Source of the DNA: an uncultured Desulfovibrionaceae bacterium | GTDB taxonomy: Bacteria > Bacillota > Dethiobacteria > DTU022 > UBA8154 | Assembly: GCA_964603615.1 (NCBI GenBank) | Contig: CAZRVU010000001.1 | Coordinates: 1,954 to 65,953 of the forward strand | DNA: 64,000 nt | Direction of reading: 5' to 3' | In this document: piece by piece, positions 9,629 to 18,594 of the stretch | Layout of the letters: every line of letters begins with the position of its first letter | Numbering within the stretch: the stretch's first letter is position 1 | Notes under the pieces: model-generated | What the model saw: only the letters and a program-made list of their open reading frames with translations | Told to the model about the DNA's origin: nothing | Database searches by the model: none | Translations under genes and position numbers: made by a program

Positions 9629-10477
9629 ATGTTCAAAATAGTTAAAAAAAGAGTATTAGCAGATGTATCCAAATTAATGGAAGTGGAAGCGCCGCTCGTG
9701 GCACGTAAGGCGCAACCCGGACAGTTTATTATTTTGCGTGTCAGCGATAACGGGGAAAGAATTCCTTTAACTATCGCTGACAGCGACAAAGAAAAAGGGA
9801 CAATCACCATTATTTACCAGGAGGTTGGTAAAACAACAAAGGAACTGGGGGCCCTTGAAGAGGGGGATTTTTTAAATGACTTTGTTGGGCCGCTGGGTCG
9901 GGCCATGGAGTTGCCGACCTCGGGACGAGTTATTGCTGTGGGCGGCGGGGTAGGTATTGCCCCGATCTACCCGAAGGTGAAGGCCTTTCATGAGGCAGGT
10001 ATGGAAGTTATCTCTATCATTGGGGCGCGGACAGCCGATCTCCTCATTTTAGAAGATGAAATGAGGGCTGTTAGCAAGGAGCTTCACATTTGTACTGATG
10101 ACGGGACAAAAGGGCATCACGGTTTTGTGTCCGATATCCTGCAGGGCATGCTCGATGATAAAAGCAAAAAGATAGATGAAATTATTGCTGTAGGTCCGCT
10201 GCCGATGATGCGTGTCATTGCCAATCAAACGAAACCCTATGGTATTAAAACAGTGGTTAGCTTAAACCCCATTATGGTTGATGGGACGGGGATGTGCGGG
10301 TGTTGCCGCGTGACTGTTGGCGGGGAAACAAAGTTTACTTGTGTCGACGGCCCTGTTTTTGATGCACACCAGGTTGATTTTGCGGAGCTGACCCGTCGTA
10401 GTCAGATGTATTTGCCGGAAGAAAAAATAGCCTTGGAAAAATATGAGAAGGAAAGCGGATCTGGAGGTGGGCGCTAG
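9629..10477 (+). CDS. nfnA: NfnA/SudB-type FAD/NAD(P)-binding [2Fe-2S] oxidoreductase subunit
   Basis: PyrK/FNR-like fold with C-terminal cysteine cluster GMCGCCRV...FTCVDGP; immediately upstream of a GltD-like partner. Confidence 0.7.
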   Translation: MFKIVKKRVLADVSKLMEVEAPLVARKAQPGQFIILRVSDNGERIPLTIADSDKEKGTITIIYQEVGKTTKELGALEEGDFLNDFVGPLGRAMELPTSGRVIAVGGGVGIAPIYPKVKAFHEAGMEVISIIGARTADLLILEDEMRAVSKELHICTDDGTKGHHGFVSDILQGMLDDKSKKIDEIIAVGPLPMMRVIANQTKPYGIKTVVSLNPIMVDGTGMCGCCRVTVGGETKFTCVDGPVFDAHQVDFAELTRRSQMYLPEEKIALEKYEKESGSGGGR

Positions 10478-10479
10478 TT

Positions 10480-11901
10480 ATGTTGGAAAAAGATGAGATC
10501 AAAAAGCTGCGCAAATTAAAAGAAAAGCATCCGATGCCGGAACAGACTCCGCAGGAGCGCATCAAAAATTTTAACGAGGTGCCCTTTGGTTATGATGCCG
10601 AAACGGCAATGAGAGAGGCTGCCCGTTGCCTGCAGTGCAAGGATCCCAAATGTGTAGAGGGTTGCCCGGTAGAGGTGGATATTCCTGCTTTTATCCAATT
10701 AATTGTTGAGGGAAAATTTGATGAAGGTATTAAAAAGCTGAAAGAAAAGAACAGCCTGCCGGCGGTTTGCGGGCGCGTTTGCCCTCAGGAGAGCCAGTGT
10801 GAAGCACTATGCTTGCGCGGCAAAAAAGGTGAACCGGTGGCTATTGGGCGCCTGGAACGTTTTCTTGCCGACTATGAACTGGCCAAGGGAGTGGAAACAC
10901 CTCCTAGGCCGGAACAGACTGGAAAGCGCGTTGCTGTCGTCGGTGCTGGCCCGGCCGGGTTGACTGCTGCCGGTGATCTGGCCAAAATGGGGCATGAGGT
11001 TGTTCTTTTTGAAGCATTTCATGCCACGGGGGGAGTTCTCCGCTATGGGATCCCTGAGTTTCGTTTGCCCAAGGAAAAAGTTTTGCAACGCGAGGTAGAT
11101 TATATTGCCAGCCTGGGCGTTGAGATTAAAACAAACGTGGTTGTGGGGAAAACTATAACGATCGATGAACTTTTTAATGAAGAAGGTTTTCAGGCTATCT
11201 TCATCGGTACGGGGGCGGGGTTGCCCCAATTTCTCCATATCCCGGGGGAAAACTTGAACGGTGTTTTTTCAGCAAATGAGTTTTTGACGAGAGCCAACCT
11301 GATGAAAGCCTATCTGTTCCCTAAGCATGATACGCCAATCAAACTGGGTAGAAAAGTTGCTGTGGTCGGTGCGGGGAACGTGGCGATGGATAGTGCCCGT
11401 ACATCGCTGCGCCTGGGTGCCGAAGAGGTTCATATTGTTTATCGTCGTTCGGATAAAGAGATGCCGGCCCGTGCCGAAGAAATTGAACACGCTAAGGAAG
11501 AAGGCGTTGTCTTTAATTTGCTGACCAATCCTGTAAGGATCATCGAGGATGAAAATGGTTGGGTTAAAGGGATGGAATGTATTAAGATGGAGCTGGGCGA
11601 ACCGGACGATTCCGGACGGGCGCGTCCCATTCCCATCGAGGGTTCCGAGTTTGTTTTTGATGTGGATACTATCGTTATTGCAATAGGTCAAAGCCCCAAC
11701 CCGCTTATTCCACAGACTACGCCTGATTTGGAGATTGGACGCCGGGGAACAATTACGGCGAACGAAGAAGGGGCAACCTCCCGCGCAGGAATATATGCCG
11801 GAGGGGACATCGTTACAGGGGCTGCCACGGTTATTTTAGCCATGGGTGCCGGTAAGGTGGCTGCACGGGCAATAGATAGCTATCTAAAAACATTATCTTA
11901 A
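10480..11901 (+). CDS. nfnB: NfnB/GltD-type glutamate synthase small-subunit-like NADPH oxidoreductase
   Basis: Cys motifs CLQCKDPKC...CP, CGRVCPQE; two dinucleotide-binding sites VAVVGAGPAGL and VAVVGAGNVAMD. Confidence 0.75.
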   Translation: MLEKDEIKKLRKLKEKHPMPEQTPQERIKNFNEVPFGYDAETAMREAARCLQCKDPKCVEGCPVEVDIPAFIQLIVEGKFDEGIKKLKEKNSLPAVCGRVCPQESQCEALCLRGKKGEPVAIGRLERFLADYELAKGVETPPRPEQTGKRVAVVGAGPAGLTAAGDLAKMGHEVVLFEAFHATGGVLRYGIPEFRLPKEKVLQREVDYIASLGVEIKTNVVVGKTITIDELFNEEGFQAIFIGTGAGLPQFLHIPGENLNGVFSANEFLTRANLMKAYLFPKHDTPIKLGRKVAVVGAGNVAMDSARTSLRLGAEEVHIVYRRSDKEMPARAEEIEHAKEEGVVFNLLTNPVRIIEDENGWVKGMECIKMELGEPDDSGRARPIPIEGSEFVFDVDTIVIAIGQSPNPLIPQTTPDLEIGRRGTITANEEGATSRAGIYAGGDIVTGAATVILAMGAGKVAARAIDSYLKTLS

Positions 11902-11926: not shown

Positions 11927-12808
11927 ATGGCAGCAAAAATTATTTCTGGAAATGAAGTGGCCAAAGAGATCCGGGCCGAACTTAAGGAAAAGGTAGCAGG
12001 ATTAAAAGAGAAAGGTATTGTACCCGGTCTTGGTGTAGTGCTGGTGGGCGAAGATCCCGCCTCTGTTTCTTATGTTACCAGTAAGGCCAAGGGTTGTCAG
12101 GAAATTGGGATGTATGAGGAAACGATCCGTCTCCCGGCGGATGTGCCTGAAGAAGAGGTGCTCAAAGTTATCGATGGTTTAAACAAGGATCCAAAATTTA
12201 GCGGAATTTTGGTGCAGCTTCCTCTGCCGGATCATATCAGTGTCGATAAAATTATCGGCTATATCTCCCCGGAGAAAGACGTCGATGGTTTTCACCCGGT
12301 CAACGTGGGCAAACTACTGCGGGGCGAGCCCTGCCCGCTGCCTTGTACCCCCCACGGTGTCCAGCAGCTTTTATTCCGTTCCGGCAATGATCCGGCGGGT
12401 AAACACGTCGTGGTTTGTGGCCGCAGCAATATCGTAGGCAAACCCTTGGCAGCGATTTTAATGCAGAAGAAAAAAGGGGCCAATGCTGTGGTAACTGTTG
12501 TGCATACGGGCGCCAAGGATATTTCTTATTTTACAAAGCAGGCTGATATTCTCATTGCTGCCATGGGCAGGCCCCAGGCGATTACTGCCGATATGGTGAA
12601 GGAAGGTACAGTTGTAATTGATGTGGGTGTCAACAGGATTCCGGATGCTTCCAAAAAGAGTGGTTTCCGCCTGGCGGGCGATGTGGATTTTGAACCCGTT
12701 GCTGCTAAAGCGTCATTTATTACACCAGTTCCCGGCGGTGTAGGGCCCATGACCGTAACCATGCTTCTTTATAACACTGTCGAAGCGGCAGCTACGCTCA
12801 ATCAGTAA
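11927..12808 (+). CDS. folD: Bifunctional 5,10-methylene-tetrahydrofolate dehydrogenase/cyclohydrolase FolD (canonical copy)
   Basis: Canonical motifs SVSYVTSK (Tyr/Lys), DVDGFHP, GRSNIVGKP, PVPGGVGPMTV. Confidence 0.9.
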   Translation: MAAKIISGNEVAKEIRAELKEKVAGLKEKGIVPGLGVVLVGEDPASVSYVTSKAKGCQEIGMYEETIRLPADVPEEEVLKVIDGLNKDPKFSGILVQLPLPDHISVDKIIGYISPEKDVDGFHPVNVGKLLRGEPCPLPCTPHGVQQLLFRSGNDPAGKHVVVCGRSNIVGKPLAAILMQKKKGANAVVTVVHTGAKDISYFTKQADILIAAMGRPQAITADMVKEGTVVIDVGVNRIPDASKKSGFRLAGDVDFEPVAAKASFITPVPGGVGPMTVTMLLYNTVEAAATLNQ

Positions 12809-12824: not shown

Positions 12825-13679
12825 ATGCCTGCAAAAATATTTAGCGAGGAAGAGGTGGGGGATAAAGTCCAACTCGAAATCCTGGCGGAATTTGGGAACC
12901 TGTGTAAAAAAACAAAAAATGTTCCCGGTTTGGCCGTGATCGTTGTTGGTGAAGACCCCGCCTCTCTTTCTGCTGCTCAGAAAAAAGAAGAAGTGGGTAA
13001 GGAACTGGGTTTTCGTGTTGGGTTACATCGTTTGCCTGCAACTGTTTCTACAGAGGAAGTTTGTAAGGTAATCCGCCGTCTGAACAGTGAAGAACAGCTC
13101 CATGGTTTGTTTTGTCAACTGCCTTTGCCCCGTCATTTGCCGGAAAAAGACATTATAGCAGCCATCGATCCCGGGAAGGACGTTGGCGGTACGCACCCGC
13201 TGAATGCGGGGAGGCTTTGGGGCGGGATGGATTGCTACCTGCCTTGCAGTGCTGATGGTTGTTTGCAGGCTCTGAACTTGACCGGACAATCGCTTCAGGG
13301 TAAAACAGCGGTACTGCTTGGACACAGCAATATTGTTACTAAACCGCTTGCTCTTGTGTTGTTACAAAAAAATGCTACGGTTACTGTATGTCCAACCATA
13401 ACCGGGGAGCTGCCGGGGATCTGCCGCAGTGCTGATATTCTCATTACAGAGATGGGAAAGCCCGGGCTAGTCAAGGGCGATTGGGTCAAGCCCGGAGCAG
13501 TGGTAATTGGTGCTGCTGCAACCCGGTCAGCGGAAGTTTCGATGGGAGATGTGGTCTCCGGGGAGGTTGTTCAGGTTGCGGGGTGGTTTTTTCATTTACC
13601 GGCCAGGGAAACAGGTGTGCTCATGCCGCTCATGTTGATGAAAAACACGCTGAAAGCATTCCAGAAAATAATAATTTAG
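12825..13679 (+). CDS. FolD-like paralog 2 (divergent; Tyr of YxxxK replaced, DVDGF->DVGGT, C-terminal PVPGGVGP motif lost)
   Basis: Clear global alignment to the upstream FolD but with substitutions at conserved positions (SLSAAQKK; DVGGTHP; GHSNIVTKP; C-terminus HLPARETGV). Confidence 0.7.
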   Translation: MPAKIFSEEEVGDKVQLEILAEFGNLCKKTKNVPGLAVIVVGEDPASLSAAQKKEEVGKELGFRVGLHRLPATVSTEEVCKVIRRLNSEEQLHGLFCQLPLPRHLPEKDIIAAIDPGKDVGGTHPLNAGRLWGGMDCYLPCSADGCLQALNLTGQSLQGKTAVLLGHSNIVTKPLALVLLQKNATVTVCPTITGELPGICRSADILITEMGKPGLVKGDWVKPGAVVIGAAATRSAEVSMGDVVSGEVVQVAGWFFHLPARETGVLMPLMLMKNTLKAFQKIII

Positions 13680-13813
13680 TAGTTGCTTCTGGGAAAGGTC
13701 AAAAAGTCTGCGTCGCGGATGTAGGTCTTTGAACTTTTCCCTTCTTTATTCTAGTTGCAGTCAACAAGATGCTAGTTATAGCAAACAATGGATTGAGCAA
13801 CAGGAGGAAATAA

Positions 13814-14653
13814 ATGAGTGCAAAAACGATTAACGGGGAACAGATTGCCAGAGAAGTGCGTGAGCAACTAAAATCGGCTACGGTTACTTTAAAGAAAAAG
13901 GGTGTAATGCCCGGCCTGGCCATTGTGGTACTCGCCAGCCCTGTAGCCCGCATTCATGTTGCCCGCTTAAAAGAACGAGCTTGCCGGCAACTCGGTATTT
14001 ATTGCCGGGCCTGTTACTTGCCGGAGAATACTACAGAGGATGAACTGGAAAAACTGCTAGCCCGTCTGAATACCGCACCGGAGATCCATGGAATAAACAT
14101 TCACCCCCTGCCGCCGTCTTTTAACCATATGTGTTTTTCTCAATTGGTAGCCCCGCACAAGGATATTGAAGGCCTTCATTTTTTGAATATGGGTGATTTT
14201 TTTAAGGGCGAATACCTGCTGACTCCCTATGTGGCCAAGGGTATTATGAAGCTAATCGGTGCAACTGGAGAAAATTTGGCGGGGAAAAGAGCTGTAATTG
14301 TCGGGCGCAGCCAGCTTGTTGGAAAACCGGTAGCCTTTTTACTGATGGAAAAAGGCGTAGCTGTAAGTATCTGCCATACCCGGACAGTGGATTTGGCTTC
14401 TTTTACGAGGGAGGCGGATCTACTCATCGTTGCTGCTGGCAAACCTCGTTTGATCACTGCCGGGATGGTCAAAGCAGGGGCGATTGTCATCGATGTTGGT
14501 GACAATCTTATCGGTACGCACCTTACGGGCGATGTGGATTACTGGAATGTGAAAAAAATTGCCGGTTGGATAACACCTGTACCGGGAGGTGCCGGCCCGG
14601 TAACGATCACCATGTTGTTTGAAAATCTACTGGAGGCGGCACAGGCTCAATGA
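13814..14653 (+). CDS. FolD-like paralog 3 (divergent; Tyr replaced, DIEGLHF, SQLVGKP, C-terminal PVPGGAGPVT retained)
   Basis: Alignable to FolD along its full length; catalytic Lys retained (HVARLKERAC) but Tyr and NADP-pocket residues altered. Confidence 0.7.
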   Translation: MSAKTINGEQIAREVREQLKSATVTLKKKGVMPGLAIVVLASPVARIHVARLKERACRQLGIYCRACYLPENTTEDELEKLLARLNTAPEIHGINIHPLPPSFNHMCFSQLVAPHKDIEGLHFLNMGDFFKGEYLLTPYVAKGIMKLIGATGENLAGKRAVIVGRSQLVGKPVAFLLMEKGVAVSICHTRTVDLASFTREADLLIVAAGKPRLITAGMVKAGAIVIDVGDNLIGTHLTGDVDYWNVKKIAGWITPVPGGAGPVTITMLFENLLEAAQAQ

Positions 14654-17298: not shown

Positions 17299-17898
17299 TG
17301 CATGAGCGGTTTACCATGGAAACGAAAGGTAACCCCTAATTTTATTTGAAATAGATATTTAATTCGAGTATAATAATAATTAGTTAGTAGTTAATTGATT
17401 GGACATAGCGTGGCGCAGTATCCTAGTTGTCACCAGCGTTTTCGAAGCGGGTGAAAAAACCGCTTTGGGCACAACGATGAAGTTCCTGGTGTTGGCTGCC
17501 GAAGCCCAGTCGGGGGTTAATACTGGGAGTTAAGGGGGACGGGGCGATCTACAAAGGCATGTAGGCGTTGACCCTGCCCCCGTGGAGACCCAAGTGCGTG
17601 GCGTATTACCATAAGGGTAAAGGGTTAGGGCTTGGGCCAGAACCTGTGTGTGGTCAAAACTGTGCACAGCGTAGCCGGCCTTGCGCGGCTTTGGGGGAGG
17701 AAGGCTTGGTCCTTAGGAAACCAAAACCGCAAAAAAGGATAGAAAACGTTATGGAGGCATCGGGGAAAACTCCTAGGCTGTTCCCTCTACCCGGGGGAGG
17801 CTTTATGGGGATTAAAGTGTGGTCTAAGTGGTAATCCAGCCCTGTTAGTGGCAACATGGCAGAAATGTTCTGAAAAGGAAACTGCCCCCTGGTAACAG
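17299..17898. other. ~600-bp GC-rich apparently non-coding block between ispA and the next gene (possible structured RNA or leader)
   Basis: No ORF >90 codons with protein-like composition; many G-runs and local hairpins (e.g. AAGCGG-GTGAAAAAA-CCGCTT); extends to ~18141 if the downstream gene starts at MRSYLIS. Confidence 0.3.
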
Positions 17899-18594
17899 GT
17901 GGTGAACATTTGGGAAATCCTGCTGGACCTCAAGCCGCAAAGTTTACTCATAAAGTTGCCACCTATGTCCATAAACAAAAAATTATTTTTGAGAGTGCAA
18001 AGAATCTTGGGGGATAACAAAAAAAGGCAAAGACAACAGAGCAAAAGAAAGAAAACTAGACATTGGGTAATCCTGATAAGTATTTGGACTTTTTTCTTCG
18101 CTGTGACTTTAACCTGGGTAACGCGTTTTTTATTACAAAATATGCGTTCATATCTGATTTCTTTTGTTCTTTTAATCTTGATTATTGCCCTGGGTATTTT
18201 TTTTGATTTAATTGGCACGGCGGCTACTGCTGCCGAGGAGACGCCTTTTCATGCCAAGGCTGCCAAAAAAATCTATGGGGCAAAGAAGGGTATATTTCTG
18301 GTACGCCATGCCGATCTGGTGGCAAATTTTTGTAATGATGTGGTTGGAGATATCAGTGGCATTGTGAGCGGAATTATCGGGGCCATAATCGTAGTCAATC
18401 TCGTTCAAAGAAATGCGGGTTTGAATGAAATATTTTTAAGTGTTCTTTTGGCGGGGATTGTATCTGCTTTAACGGTGGGCGGCAAAGCTTTTGGTAAGTC
18501 TTTGGCGATTAACAGGCCAACGGAGCTAGTGTTGTTTGTGGCTCGTTTTTTGACGACCTTTGAGCGGATTTTTATGAAAAAAAGAAGTTCATAG
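17899..18594 (+). CDS. DUF21 (CNNM-type transmembrane domain) membrane protein without CBS/CorC domains; start uncertain (GTG 17899, or ATG 18142)
   Basis: C-terminal ~150 aa resemble the DUF21 TM domain (LIGTAATAAEETPF..., LVANFCNDVVGDISGIVSGIIGA); the N-terminal 80 aa are lysine/arginine-rich with no SD before any candidate start. Confidence 0.4.
   Translation: MVNIWEILLDLKPQSLLIKLPPMSINKKLFLRVQRILGDNKKRQRQQSKRKKTRHWVILISIWTFFFAVTLTWVTRFLLQNMRSYLISFVLLILIIALGIFFDLIGTAATAAEETPFHAKAAKKIYGAKKGIFLVRHADLVANFCNDVVGDISGIVSGIIGAIIVVNLVQRNAGLNEIFLSVLLAGIVSALTVGGKAFGKSLAINRPTELVLFVARFLTTFERIFMKKRSS

What the first reader, a model, noticed from the sequence alone, without database searches (positions are those of the whole stretch)
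12825..13679. FolD paralog 2 has lost hallmark catalytic/cofactor motifs: candidate pseudo-enzyme or neofunctionalised protein
Relative to the adjacent canonical copy, the Tyr of the S-x-x-Y-x-x-x-K motif is Ala (SLSAAQKK), DVDGFHP becomes DVGGTHP, GRSNIVGKP becomes GHSNIVTKP, and the C-terminal PVPGGVGPMTV motif is replaced by HLPARETGVLMP. The Lys is retained. An intact ORF with eroded active-site signatures suggests a regulatory or scaffolding subunit, or altered chemistry.
Basis: seen in the sequence. Interest (0 to 1): 0.6.

Follow-up and report, generated by a model that had tools for sequence, protein, structure and literature searches.

The report
Catalytically dead FolD paralog, kept by selection
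The middle gene of three tandem FolD (folate C1 enzyme) copies has lost the residues that bind folate and NADP. It has nonetheless stayed intact under purifying selection across a small group of uncultured anaerobic Bacillota, so it is most likely a non-catalytic "pseudoenzyme" and not a working enzyme or a dying gene.

Summary
ORF 12825-13679 is a full-length FolD homolog with both Pfam domains. It lacks the stacking Tyr, the pterin-binding Asp, the Gly-rich NADP loop, the His/Ser/Arg 2'-phosphate site and the PGGVGP loop. All of these are invariant or nearly so in 103 canonical homologs.

- **Not an artefact or a pseudogene.** The same eroded protein occurs in at least 11 sequence clusters (49-70% identity). 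It always sits in nusB-nfnA-nfnB-folD1-folD2-folD3-xseA. dN/dS is 0.15-0.29, against 0.02-0.03 for copy 1 and 0.07-0.12 for copy 3.
- **Where constraint remains.** Conservation has vanished from the former ligand positions. It persists on the dimer-interface elements, and several replacements are fixed (C97, P190, E209, A260, E262).
- **Fold.** The AlphaFold model is confident and matches FolD structures at TM about 0.9.
There is a third paralog (13814-14653) with a sharply conserved, remodelled folate pocket and an intact NADP site. The R-to-H change is not diagnostic. A conserved hairpin plus U-tract after copy 2 ties it to the nfnAB-folD1 unit. A second, independent erosion of the same ortholog exists in another lineage.

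The protein's actual non-catalytic role (partner, regulator or scaffold) remains inferred. I rate it a new variant of a known kind, of moderate interest.

The parts
9629..10477 (+). nfnA-like gene (FAD/NAD-binding, DHOD-B Fe-S subunit type); first gene of the transhydrogenase-FolD unit
   Evidence: NCBIfam NF004862 at 423.8 bits against a cutoff of 220; Pfam PF10418, PF00175. Same position in related loci.
10480..11901 (+). nfnB-like gene (GltD-type NADPH-binding Fe-S flavoprotein)
   Evidence: TIGR01316 at 590 bits against a cutoff of 472; PF14691, PF07992. nfn upstream of folD is known in Moorella (PMC6405883).
11927..12808 (+). FolD copy 1 (F1): canonical, very strongly conserved, strong Shine-Dalgarno sequence
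   Evidence: All 20 published ligand and catalytic positions are canonical or conservative. 82-98% identity among related genomes. dN/dS 0.02-0.03. GAGGAGG upstream of the ATG.
12825..13679 (+). FolD copy 2 (F2): the finding. FolD-fold protein with the folate and NADP sites dismantled
   Evidence: motifs; fold; selection; where the constraint lies.
13689..13751 (+). Long hairpin (13689-13741) followed by a U-rich tract (13742-13751). Terminator- or attenuator-like element that closes the nfnAB-F1-F2 unit
   Evidence: MFE -25.7 kcal/mol, z = -3.85. Equivalent hairpin plus U-tract in 9 of the 10 such spacers folded (W, L010, L001, L004, L006, L008, L016, L095, L096), absent only in L093. It also follows F1 in L090, which has no F2. 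Stem sequences differ between loci. The simple terminator scan did not flag it.
13814..14653 (+). FolD copy 3 (F3): divergent FolD-like paralog with a remodelled folate pocket and an intact NADP site. Its stop overlaps the xseA start
   Evidence: 54 of 54 clade members have Tyr to V/I, Gln to His, a Leu101 deletion and Asp to Glu; 51 of 54 have Ser49 to Arg. R173, H196 and G237 are 54/54; S174, S197 and A215 are kept in 51, 48 and 52 of 54. dN/dS 0.07-0.12.

Best explanation
F2 is a FolD-derived pseudoenzyme. It keeps the two-domain FolD fold and the elements that form the FolD dimer interface. It can no longer bind folate or NADP(H), so it catalyses neither the dehydrogenase nor the cyclohydrolase reaction.

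It descends from the ancestral canonical FolD of this lineage. That gene probably became redundant once the highly conserved F1 sat next to nfnAB. The gene is not decaying freely: it is the last gene of the nfnAB-folD1-folD2 unit and is maintained by purifying selection. The most likely role is therefore non-catalytic, as a dimer-forming partner, regulator or scaffold within the NADPH-linked C1 module.

Shown: motif loss, fold retention, clade conservation, selection, operon position. Inferred: catalytic inactivity (from mutagenesis of homologs), dimerisation, and any partner or regulatory role.
For: - **Folate-site residues.** Of the 7 published substrate and catalysis residues, the window protein lacks Y52, D125 and G273 (list from PMC3368264).
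- **NADP-site residues.** Of the 13 published NADP residues it lacks or alters T148, R173, H196, A215, C/V236, G237, plus G178 and the R/K198 equivalent.
- **Mutagenesis of homologs.** Y-to-A and D-to-A mutants of a homolog have negligible kcat/Km. An E. coli D121 mutant falls to 0.17%, and Y50 mutants are unmeasurable (PMC6443876).
- **Fold.** AF2 pLDDT 92.7, pTM 0.90. Foldseek top hits are all FolD/MTHFD at TM 0.88-0.93.
- **Clade.** The eroded clade is monophyletic (bootstrap 99) and nested in an F2 clade (bootstrap 100). Its sister (bootstrap 90) is a fully canonical FolD.
- **Selection.** dN/dS is 0.15-0.29 in eight comparisons between eroded orthologs, including one with unsaturated dS of 0.42. 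A neutral simulation at 0.4 substitutions per site keeps the ORF open in 0.06% of replicates.
- **Location of constraint.** Mean pairwise identity in the eroded clade is 0.77 on the alpha5/alpha7/beta6/alpha8 interface elements, 0.57 on former ligand positions and 0.58 elsewhere (0 of 5000 permutations reached the observed interface value). In F1 the ligand positions are the most conserved, at 0.99. Interface elements are taken from PMC3338484 and PMC3368264.
- **Lys not required.** One subclade replaced K54 and Q98 together by E and R, so the catalytic Lys is not needed for the clade's function.
- **Repeated erosion.** A second, independent erosion of the same ortholog exists (P0258 in L093), with the ORF again intact.
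- **Operon position.** Conserved gene order, a 12-27 nt gap to F1, and a hairpin plus U-tract after F2.
Against: - No activity, binding or interaction data exist. Inactivity is inferred from homolog mutagenesis.
- dN/dS is 2-4 times higher than in non-eroded F2 orthologs (about 0.07), and the Shine-Dalgarno sequence is weak. F2 is absent from one related genome (L090). All three fit low importance.
- The interface elements are also core Rossmann-fold elements. Their conservation may therefore reflect folding and not dimerisation.
- F1's interface elements are invariant whether F2 is present, eroded or absent, and F1 carries a 4-residue insertion between alpha7 and beta6 that F2 lacks. This does not favour an obligate F1-F2 heterodimer.
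- Several replaced cleft positions are fixed to specific new residues. This could mean a new ligand site and not mere loss.
Confidence: 0.6

Rival explanations
1. Neofunctionalised protein. The remodelled cleft is a new binding or catalytic site for a ligand other than folate and NADP, so F2 is a new enzyme or sensor and not a dead one.
For: A subset of former cleft positions is fixed to specific new residues across the eroded clade: C97 11/11, P190 11/11, E209 10/11, A260 10/11, E262 10/11, L192 10/11, G121 9/11. Two new acidic side chains sit in the former NADP site. K54 and Q98 are kept in 9 of 11.
Against: - As a class, the former ligand positions are no more conserved than background (0.57 vs 0.58).
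- The Gly-rich loop, position 50 and positions 123/142/167/263 vary freely.
- The window copy has further lost D229 and G231 (VIGAA).
- One subclade swapped K54/Q98 for E/R.
- The independently eroded P0258 shows a different pattern.
- The fixed Glu residues could simply fill and stabilise an empty cofactor pocket.
Confidence: 0.2
2. A redundant copy decaying slowly towards loss. It has no function of its own, and the apparent constraint reflects weak selection against toxic misfolding or polar effects on the operon.
For: dN/dS is raised 2-4 fold over non-eroded orthologs and about 10-fold over F1. Weak Shine-Dalgarno sequence. F2 missing in L090. Erosion happened twice. Erosion continues in the window copy.
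Against: dN/dS is 0.15-0.29, far below 1, in every pair. The ORF is intact with no frameshift in all eroded-clade clusters seen (the one short entry, 193-aa P0259, was not examined) plus P0258, at dS from 0.4 to above 1, whereas neutral drift would close it. There is localised strong conservation (58 invariant columns in 11 sequences; interface 0.77).
Confidence: 0.15
3. A still-active FolD isozyme whose motifs merely look shifted because of misalignment or unusual but tolerated substitutions.
For: Overall homology is strong (E 4.9e-52 to T. thermophilus MTHFD). K54, Q98 and L99 are kept. R-to-H in GRS is tolerated in principle, since P. aeruginosa FolD has Ala there.
Against: Alignments are gap-free through all motifs except one insertion. 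The lost residues are 103/103 in canonical homologs. Single mutations of the Tyr or Asp alone nearly abolish activity.
Confidence: 0.03

Closest known systems
Canonical bacterial FolD (bifunctional 5,10-methylene-THF dehydrogenase / 5,10-methenyl-THF cyclohydrolase; e.g. E. coli 1B0A, P. aeruginosa 4A5O, T. thermophilus 6V6Y)
   Same: Same two Pfam domains, same length, and same predicted fold (TM about 0.9). Same secondary-structure elements that form the dimer interface. Same genomic neighbourhood as Bacillota folD (nusB ... xseA-xseB-ispA).
   Different: Lacks the Tyr of YxxxK, the pterin-binding Asp, the GxSxxxGxP glycine, the His/Ser/Arg 2'-phosphate site and the PGGVGP loop. Evolves about 10 times faster at non-synonymous sites than the canonical copy next to it.
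N-terminal FolD-like domain of vertebrate MTHFD1L (inactive dehydrogenase/cyclohydrolase domain)
   Same: A FolD-homologous module that has accumulated disabling substitutions yet is retained, alongside active paralogs (PMC11064299).
   Different: MTHFD1L's dead domain is fused to an active formyl-THF synthetase in a eukaryotic mitochondrial protein. F2 is a free-standing bacterial protein in an nfnAB-folD operon. I found no bacterial counterpart in the literature searched.
Prozyme-type dead paralogs that partner their active paralog (e.g. trypanosomatid AdoMetDC prozyme; HisZ with HisG). Recalled from general knowledge, not checked here
   Same: A catalytically disabled paralog, encoded with its active paralog, kept under selection with oligomerisation elements conserved.
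   Different: No evidence here for a heteromer or for activation. This is a resemblance in logic only.
nfnAB-folD linkage of acetogens (Moorella thermoacetica)
   Same: The transhydrogenase genes lie directly upstream of an NADPH-dependent methylene-THF dehydrogenase gene (PMC6405883). One related genome has Stn-type genes instead (architecture as in PMC7483475).
   Different: Here the operon carries two FolD genes, the second of them dead, and a third divergent paralog follows a terminator-like hairpin.

Membership tests
FolD / THF_DHG_CYH superfamily (homology) | N-terminal PF00763 and C-terminal PF02882 domains over the full length | tested here: met
   PF00763 at 91.9 bits (cutoff 32.8) and PF02882 at 134.5 bits (cutoff 27). 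Foldseek TM 0.88-0.93 to FolD/MTHFD structures.
Functional bifunctional FolD (EC 1.5.1.5 / 3.5.4.9) | YxxxK motif: Tyr stacks on the pABA ring; Lys is the cyclohydrolase acid/base | tested here: not met
   Tyr to Ala50 (S/A/V/T across the clade). Lys54 is kept in the window copy but is Glu in 2 of 11 clade members.
Functional bifunctional FolD (EC 1.5.1.5 / 3.5.4.9) | Asp (human D125, E. coli D121) that anchors the pterin ring | tested here: not met
   Gly121 in the window; G9/C1/S1 in the clade against D 103/103 in canonical homologs. Mutant data.
Functional bifunctional FolD (EC 1.5.1.5 / 3.5.4.9) | Gln (human Q100) that positions the Lys | tested here: met
   Q98 is present in the window copy (Q in 9 of 11 clade members, R in 2).
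Functional bifunctional FolD (EC 1.5.1.5 / 3.5.4.9) | NADP site: GxSxxxGxP loop; Arg/His/Ser 2'-phosphate triad; A215; C/V236-G237 | tested here: not met
   G178 to T172, R173 to H, H196 to P190 (11/11), A215 to E209 (10/11), VIDVG to VIGAA.
Functional bifunctional FolD (EC 1.5.1.5 / 3.5.4.9) | PGGVGP loop (G273, G276) lining the substrate and nicotinamide site | tested here: not met
   LPARETGV with a one-residue insertion; G273 to A260, G274 to E262.
Functional bifunctional FolD (EC 1.5.1.5 / 3.5.4.9) | Measured dehydrogenase and cyclohydrolase activity | not testable with these tools
   Needs purified protein.
Functional bifunctional FolD (EC 1.5.1.5 / 3.5.4.9) | NCBIfam equivalog score above the curated cutoff | tested here: inconclusive
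   F2's best hit is 239.9 bits against a cutoff of 396. The canonical F1 also falls below every cutoff among the 25 models shown (closest 328.2 vs 333), so these lineage-specific cutoffs do not discriminate.
Pseudoenzyme (dead paralog retained by selection) | Homologous to an active enzyme but lacking residues required for catalysis or cofactor binding | tested here: met
Pseudoenzyme (dead paralog retained by selection) | Maintained under purifying selection across species | tested here: met
   dN/dS 0.15-0.29. At least 11 clusters with intact ORFs. Neutral simulation.
Pseudoenzyme (dead paralog retained by selection) | Demonstrated lack of activity and a demonstrated non-catalytic function | not testable with these tools
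   Requires biochemistry or genetics.
Prozyme-like heteromeric partner of an active paralog | Physical heteromer with F1 (or F3) through the FolD dimer interface | tested here: inconclusive
   Interface elements are conserved in F2 (0.77 vs 0.58). However, F1's interface is invariant regardless of F2's state, and F1 has a 4-residue insertion there. No multimer prediction was possible.

The most novel reading that the evidence does not exclude
The three-FolD module is a functional unit specific to these putative Wood-Ljungdahl / syntrophic acetate-oxidising Bacillota. Dead F2 would act as a prozyme-like regulatory or scaffolding subunit that docks the catalytic FolD (F1) to the NfnAB transhydrogenase, or tunes it allosterically, to control NADPH-coupled C1 flux or its direction. 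F3 would be a new NADP-dependent enzyme with a re-engineered pocket.
Probability: 0.15. Interest if true: 0.7.

Novelty: new variant of a known kind. Interest (0 to 1): 0.45.

Why it matters
FolD is a central, normally single-copy enzyme of bacterial C1 metabolism (PMC11064299). It is also a step of the Wood-Ljungdahl pathway, which the relatives of this organism (Dethiobacteria-type MAGs from digesters and alkaline sites) are proposed to use for syntrophic acetate oxidation.

These genomes carry three FolD genes, and databases name all of them 'bifunctional FolD'. Only one looks able to do the reaction. Pathway reconstructions and gene-copy counts are therefore misleading.

A free-standing bacterial FolD pseudoenzyme retained under selection, eroded twice independently, would be a clean system for studying how a redundant core enzyme becomes a non-catalytic protein. 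The neighbouring F3 subfamily may be an undescribed enzyme.

Tried and rejected
- **RNA elements.** An Rfam scan of the whole window for a riboswitch (ZTP/THF) near the FolD genes found only OLE RNA further downstream.
- **Terminator scan.** The simple scan did not flag the F2-F3 hairpin because its stem is long and imperfect. Folding was needed.
- **NCBIfam cutoffs.** They turned out not to discriminate, because the canonical F1 fails them too.
- **Literature.** Searches for multi-copy or dead bacterial FolD found nothing relevant; 'fold' is too generic a word.
- **Organism.** The exact copies found sit on an 8.7-kb metagenome scaffold and, per the cluster tables, a 206.6-kb NCBI/Logan contig whose record I did not retrieve. 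Placement therefore rests on the titles of related MAGs.
- **Heterodimer prediction.** F1:F2 or F2:F3 could not be run. The structure tool takes one chain, and the genes are not in frame.
- **Frameshift origin of the new C-terminal loop.** I checked by hand whether a frameshifted PVPGGVGP codon string could give LPAxE. It cannot, and an in-frame 3-nt insertion fits.
- **First bootstrap tree.** It timed out and was redone with faster distance code.

Full report
**What is at the coordinates.** The ORF at 12825-13679 (+, 284 aa) is real and is a full-length FolD homolog. It matches both FolD Pfam domains: PF00763 at 91.9 bits and PF02882 at 134.5 bits. Its best solved relative is T. thermophilus MTHFD, E = 4.9e-52. 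It is the middle of three tandem FolD paralogs on the + strand: F1 at 11927-12808, F2 at 12825-13679 and F3 at 13814-14653. They lie in the order nusB, nfnA-like, nfnB-like, F1, F2, F3, xseA, xseB, ispA. F2 and F3 are each 42% identical to F1.

**Checking the observation.** Each survives alignment to F1, to 23 and 119 homologs and to solved FolD sequences.

I mapped the protein onto the published contact lists for the human enzyme. These are seven substrate and catalysis residues (Y52, K56, Q100, L101, D125, G273, G276) and thirteen NADP residues (PMC3368264). All 20 named human residues fell on the expected letters, which validates the human numbering; the E. coli numbering agrees with the P. 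aeruginosa residue numbers.

- **Kept in the window F2:** K54, Q98, L99, G264.
- **Lost from the folate site:** the Tyr (A50), the Asp (G121), G273 (A260).
- **Altered in the NADP site:** T148 to S, R173 to H, G178 to T172, H196 to P190, the R/K198 equivalent to I192, A215 to E209, VIDVG to VIGAA, N239 to T233, G274 to E262, plus a one-residue insertion in the loop.

In 103 canonical homologs the Tyr, Lys, Gln, Asp, G178, H196 and G274 equivalents are 103/103. One item was over-read: Arg to His in 'GRS' is not diagnostic, because active P. aeruginosa FolD has Ala there.

**Consequence for catalysis (inferred).** In P. aeruginosa and human FolD the Tyr stacks on the substrate and the Asp binds the pterin (PMC3338484 and PMC3368264). 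Y-to-A and D-to-A mutants of a homologous MTHFD have negligible catalytic efficiency. An E. coli D121 mutant retains 0.17% of kcat/Km, and Y50 mutants were too inactive to measure (PMC6443876). The Arg/His/Ser 2'-phosphate site and the glycine loop are also dismantled, and two Glu side chains are introduced into the cofactor site. F2 is therefore very unlikely to carry out either FolD reaction.

**The fold is intact.** An AlphaFold2 model built on a 120-sequence alignment has mean pLDDT 92.7 and pTM 0.90. Only loop 234-237 is unconfident. The 50 best Foldseek PDB matches listed are all FolD/MTHFD structures, at TM 0.88-0.93.

**It is a conserved clade, not an accident of this assembly.**
- A search of 5.8 billion proteins found the exact sequence plus ten further clusters at 49-70% identity with the same derived state.
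- An exhaustive profile search of 1.84 billion representatives shows a sharp gap: 525 bits for the clade, then 291 bits or less.
- In every case where flanking DNA was available the gene sits in the same order, nusB-nfnA-nfnB-F1-F2-F3-xseA.
- Record titles place the relatives in Bacillota MAGs from anaerobic digesters and a 'Dethiobacteria bacterium' MAG. Dethiobacteria are discussed as Wood-Ljungdahl / syntrophic acetate-oxidising candidates.
- A neighbour-joining tree gives F1 (bootstrap 100), all F2 (100) and F3 (100) as separate clades. The eroded F2s form a monophyletic group (99) nested among less derived F2s. Those keep Tyr/Phe, Lys (5 of 6), Gln (5 of 6), GRSNIVGKP, CHS and PVPGGVGP and differ mainly by Asp to Glu.
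- The sister of the whole F2 clade (bootstrap 90) is a fully canonical FolD sitting just before an F3 in a genome without nfnAB or F1.

F2 is therefore the descendant of the ancestral canonical FolD. My inference is that it became redundant once F1 with nfnAB occupied the locus. Some genomes have lost it (L090 has nfnAB-F1-F3). Some keep it nearly canonical. The window's lineage keeps it in eroded form.

**Selection.** Nei-Gojobori estimates on orthologous pairs are as follows.

| Paralog | dN/dS |
|---|---|
| F1 | 0.02-0.03 |
| F3 | 0.07-0.12 |
| Non-eroded F2 | about 0.07 |
| Eroded F2 | 0.15-0.29 |

The eroded-F2 range includes 0.19 for a pair with unsaturated dS of 0.42. Constraint is relaxed but far from neutral. 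In a substitution-only neutral simulation, only 0.06% of replicates keep the ORF open at 0.4 substitutions per site. Every eroded-clade cluster seen is intact, apart from one 193-aa entry (P0259) that I did not examine.

**Where the constraint lies.** In the eroded clade the elements that form the FolD dimer interface are alpha5, alpha7, beta6 and alpha8. They have mean pairwise identity 0.77. Former ligand positions score 0.57 and the rest 0.58 (0 of 5000 permutations reached the interface value). In F1 the ligand positions are the most conserved class, at 0.99. Catalytic constraint has been lost as a class while the dimerisation and core elements are still protected. The caveat is that these elements are also core Rossmann-fold pieces.

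Erosion is not purely random. C97 and P190 are 11/11. E209, A260, E262 and L192 are 10/11, and G121 is 9/11. One subclade changed K54 and Q98 together to E and R. That looks like a structural pair being preserved, not a catalytic Lys.

**Independent recurrence.** A further F2 ortholog from an anaerobic-digester assembly (P0258, locus L093, again nfnAB-F1-F2-F3-xseA) is eroded in a different pattern: K54 to D, Q98 to H, GDSDLLTKS, SIPEGITSL, with H196 and A215 kept. It groups with a non-eroded F2 and not with the window's clade. Its dN/dS against that relative is 0.20. The same ortholog has therefore lost its catalytic apparatus at least twice while staying open.

**Operon structure.**
- F1 has a consensus Shine-Dalgarno sequence (GAGGAGG / AAGGAGG). 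Eroded F2 copies have only AAGG/AGGG cores. F1-F2 gaps are 12-27 nt.
- Directly after the F2 stop there is a long hairpin (window 13689-13741; -25.7 kcal/mol, z = -3.85) followed by a U-rich tract (13742-13751).
- An equivalent hairpin plus U-tract, with different stem sequences, occurs in 9 of the 10 such spacers folded (absent only in L093). It also follows F1 in the genome that has no F2.
- This suggests nfnAB-F1-F2 is one transcription unit and F3-xseA-xseB another.
- In one relative, NfnAB and F1 are replaced upstream of F2 by genes with the Stn-type transhydrogenase architecture (NuoE-like, NuoF-like and a 1241-aa GltD/NuoG-type fusion) (PMC7483475). An nfn-folD linkage is known from Moorella (PMC6405883). 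F2's lineage has thus always been tied to an NADPH-generating transhydrogenase.

**Most likely mechanism.** F2 is a pseudoenzyme: a FolD-fold, probably dimer-forming protein with a dead cleft, expressed at a low level as the last gene of the nfnAB-folD1 operon and retained for a non-catalytic role.
- **Shown:** motif loss, fold, clade conservation, selection, location of constraint, operon position.
- **Inferred:** inactivity, dimerisation, and any partner or regulatory function.
- **On a heterodimer with F1:** I do not favour an obligate one. F1's interface elements are invariant whether F2 is present, eroded or absent, and F1 carries a 4-residue insertion between alpha7 and beta6.
- **Rivals:** a remodelled ligand site (supported by the fixed Cys/Pro/Glu substitutions, weakened by background-level conservation of the cleft as a whole); slow decay of a redundant gene (supported by relaxed dN/dS, weak Shine-Dalgarno sequence and loss in L090, contradicted by dN/dS far below 1 and intact ORFs); a still-active FolD (effectively excluded).

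**Comparison with what is known.** F2 is a member of the FolD homology family but fails four of the defining functional features of the enzyme. The closest precedent for a dead FolD module is the N-terminal domain of vertebrate MTHFD1L (PMC11064299), which is fused to an active synthetase. I found no report of a free-standing bacterial FolD pseudoenzyme or of this three-paralog cluster. A recent survey states that most bacteria have a single FolD. Public annotations call these proteins 'bifunctional FolD'.

**Verdict.** I classify the finding as a new variant of a known kind (a pseudoenzyme derived from FolD), of moderate interest (0.45). The neighbouring F3 subfamily, with a sharply conserved re-engineered pocket and an intact NADP site, may deserve separate attention.

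Noticed in passing
window 13814-14653 (+): The third FolD paralog (F3) defines a sharply conserved subfamily of about 60 clusters. The core 54 share (K/R)SPxAR(V/I)H(V/I)ARLKE, NIH-PL and KD(V/I)EGLH. In human numbering this is Tyr52 to V/I, Gln100 to His, Leu101 deleted and Asp125 to Glu in 54/54, and Ser49 to Arg in 51/54. The NADP-site residues are kept. It always accompanies another FolD and sits in the ancestral folD slot, overlapping xseA. E. coli Q98H keeps 8% dehydrogenase and about 1% cyclohydrolase activity (PMC5688156). F3 is possibly a monofunctional or novel NADP-dependent enzyme.
   Followed up: partly
window 13689-13751 (+): A long hairpin plus U-rich tract sits directly after the F2 stop. 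It is conserved as a structure, not as sequence, in 9 of the 10 related F2-F3 spacers folded. It also follows F1 in a genome lacking F2. It is likely a terminator or attenuator splitting nfnAB-F1-F2 from F3-xseAB. A weak sigma-70-like TTGCAG-16-TATAGC lies at 13755-13782.
   Followed up: partly
L093:5001-5861 (protein P0258): A second, independently eroded F2 ortholog in an anaerobic-digester assembly. It shows a different loss pattern (K54 to D, Q98 to H, GDSDLLTKS, SIPEGITSL) in the same nfnAB-F1-F2-F3-xseA order.
   Followed up: partly
window 17394-17978 (+), with ORF 17899-18594: A full-length OLE RNA (Rfam RF01071, 418.9 bits) lies between ispA and dxs. It is followed by a membrane-protein-like ORF that overlaps its 3' end. 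From memory this is the known ispA-OLE-oapA-dxs arrangement of anaerobic and extremophilic Bacillota.
   Followed up: no
L008/L015:1-5978: In one relative (MAG JAUSPO01) the NfnAB genes and F1 are absent. F2 is instead preceded by NuoE-like, NuoF-like and 1241-aa GltD/NuoG-fusion genes, the architecture of the Stn transhydrogenase. Two different NADPH-generating bifurcating systems therefore occupy the same slot upstream of this FolD lineage.
   Followed up: no
window 11927-12808 (+): F1 is unusually conserved: 95% identity to a relative whose F3 is 78% and F2 60% identical, with dN/dS 0.02. It carries a 4-residue insertion (KKGA) between the interface helix and strand and a 7-residue insertion in the 231-243 loop. 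This may mark a highly expressed catabolic FolD of separate origin.
   Followed up: partly
proteins P0280, P0294, P0310, P0363, P0400; P0281, P0305, P0350, P0352, P0374: Among the best 149 representatives of the exhaustive search, 32 deviate at one or more of five key positions. They include recurrent types with Lys54 to Gln plus Asp121 to Glu, and with Lys54 to Ile. Non-canonical FolD-like paralogs seem more widespread than the 'bifunctional FolD' annotation suggests.
   Followed up: no
L010, L095, L096 F2 genes: One subclade of the eroded F2 changed Lys54 to Glu and Gln98 to Arg together. This charge swap at two positions that contact each other in canonical FolD suggests a structural, not catalytic, constraint.
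   Followed up: no
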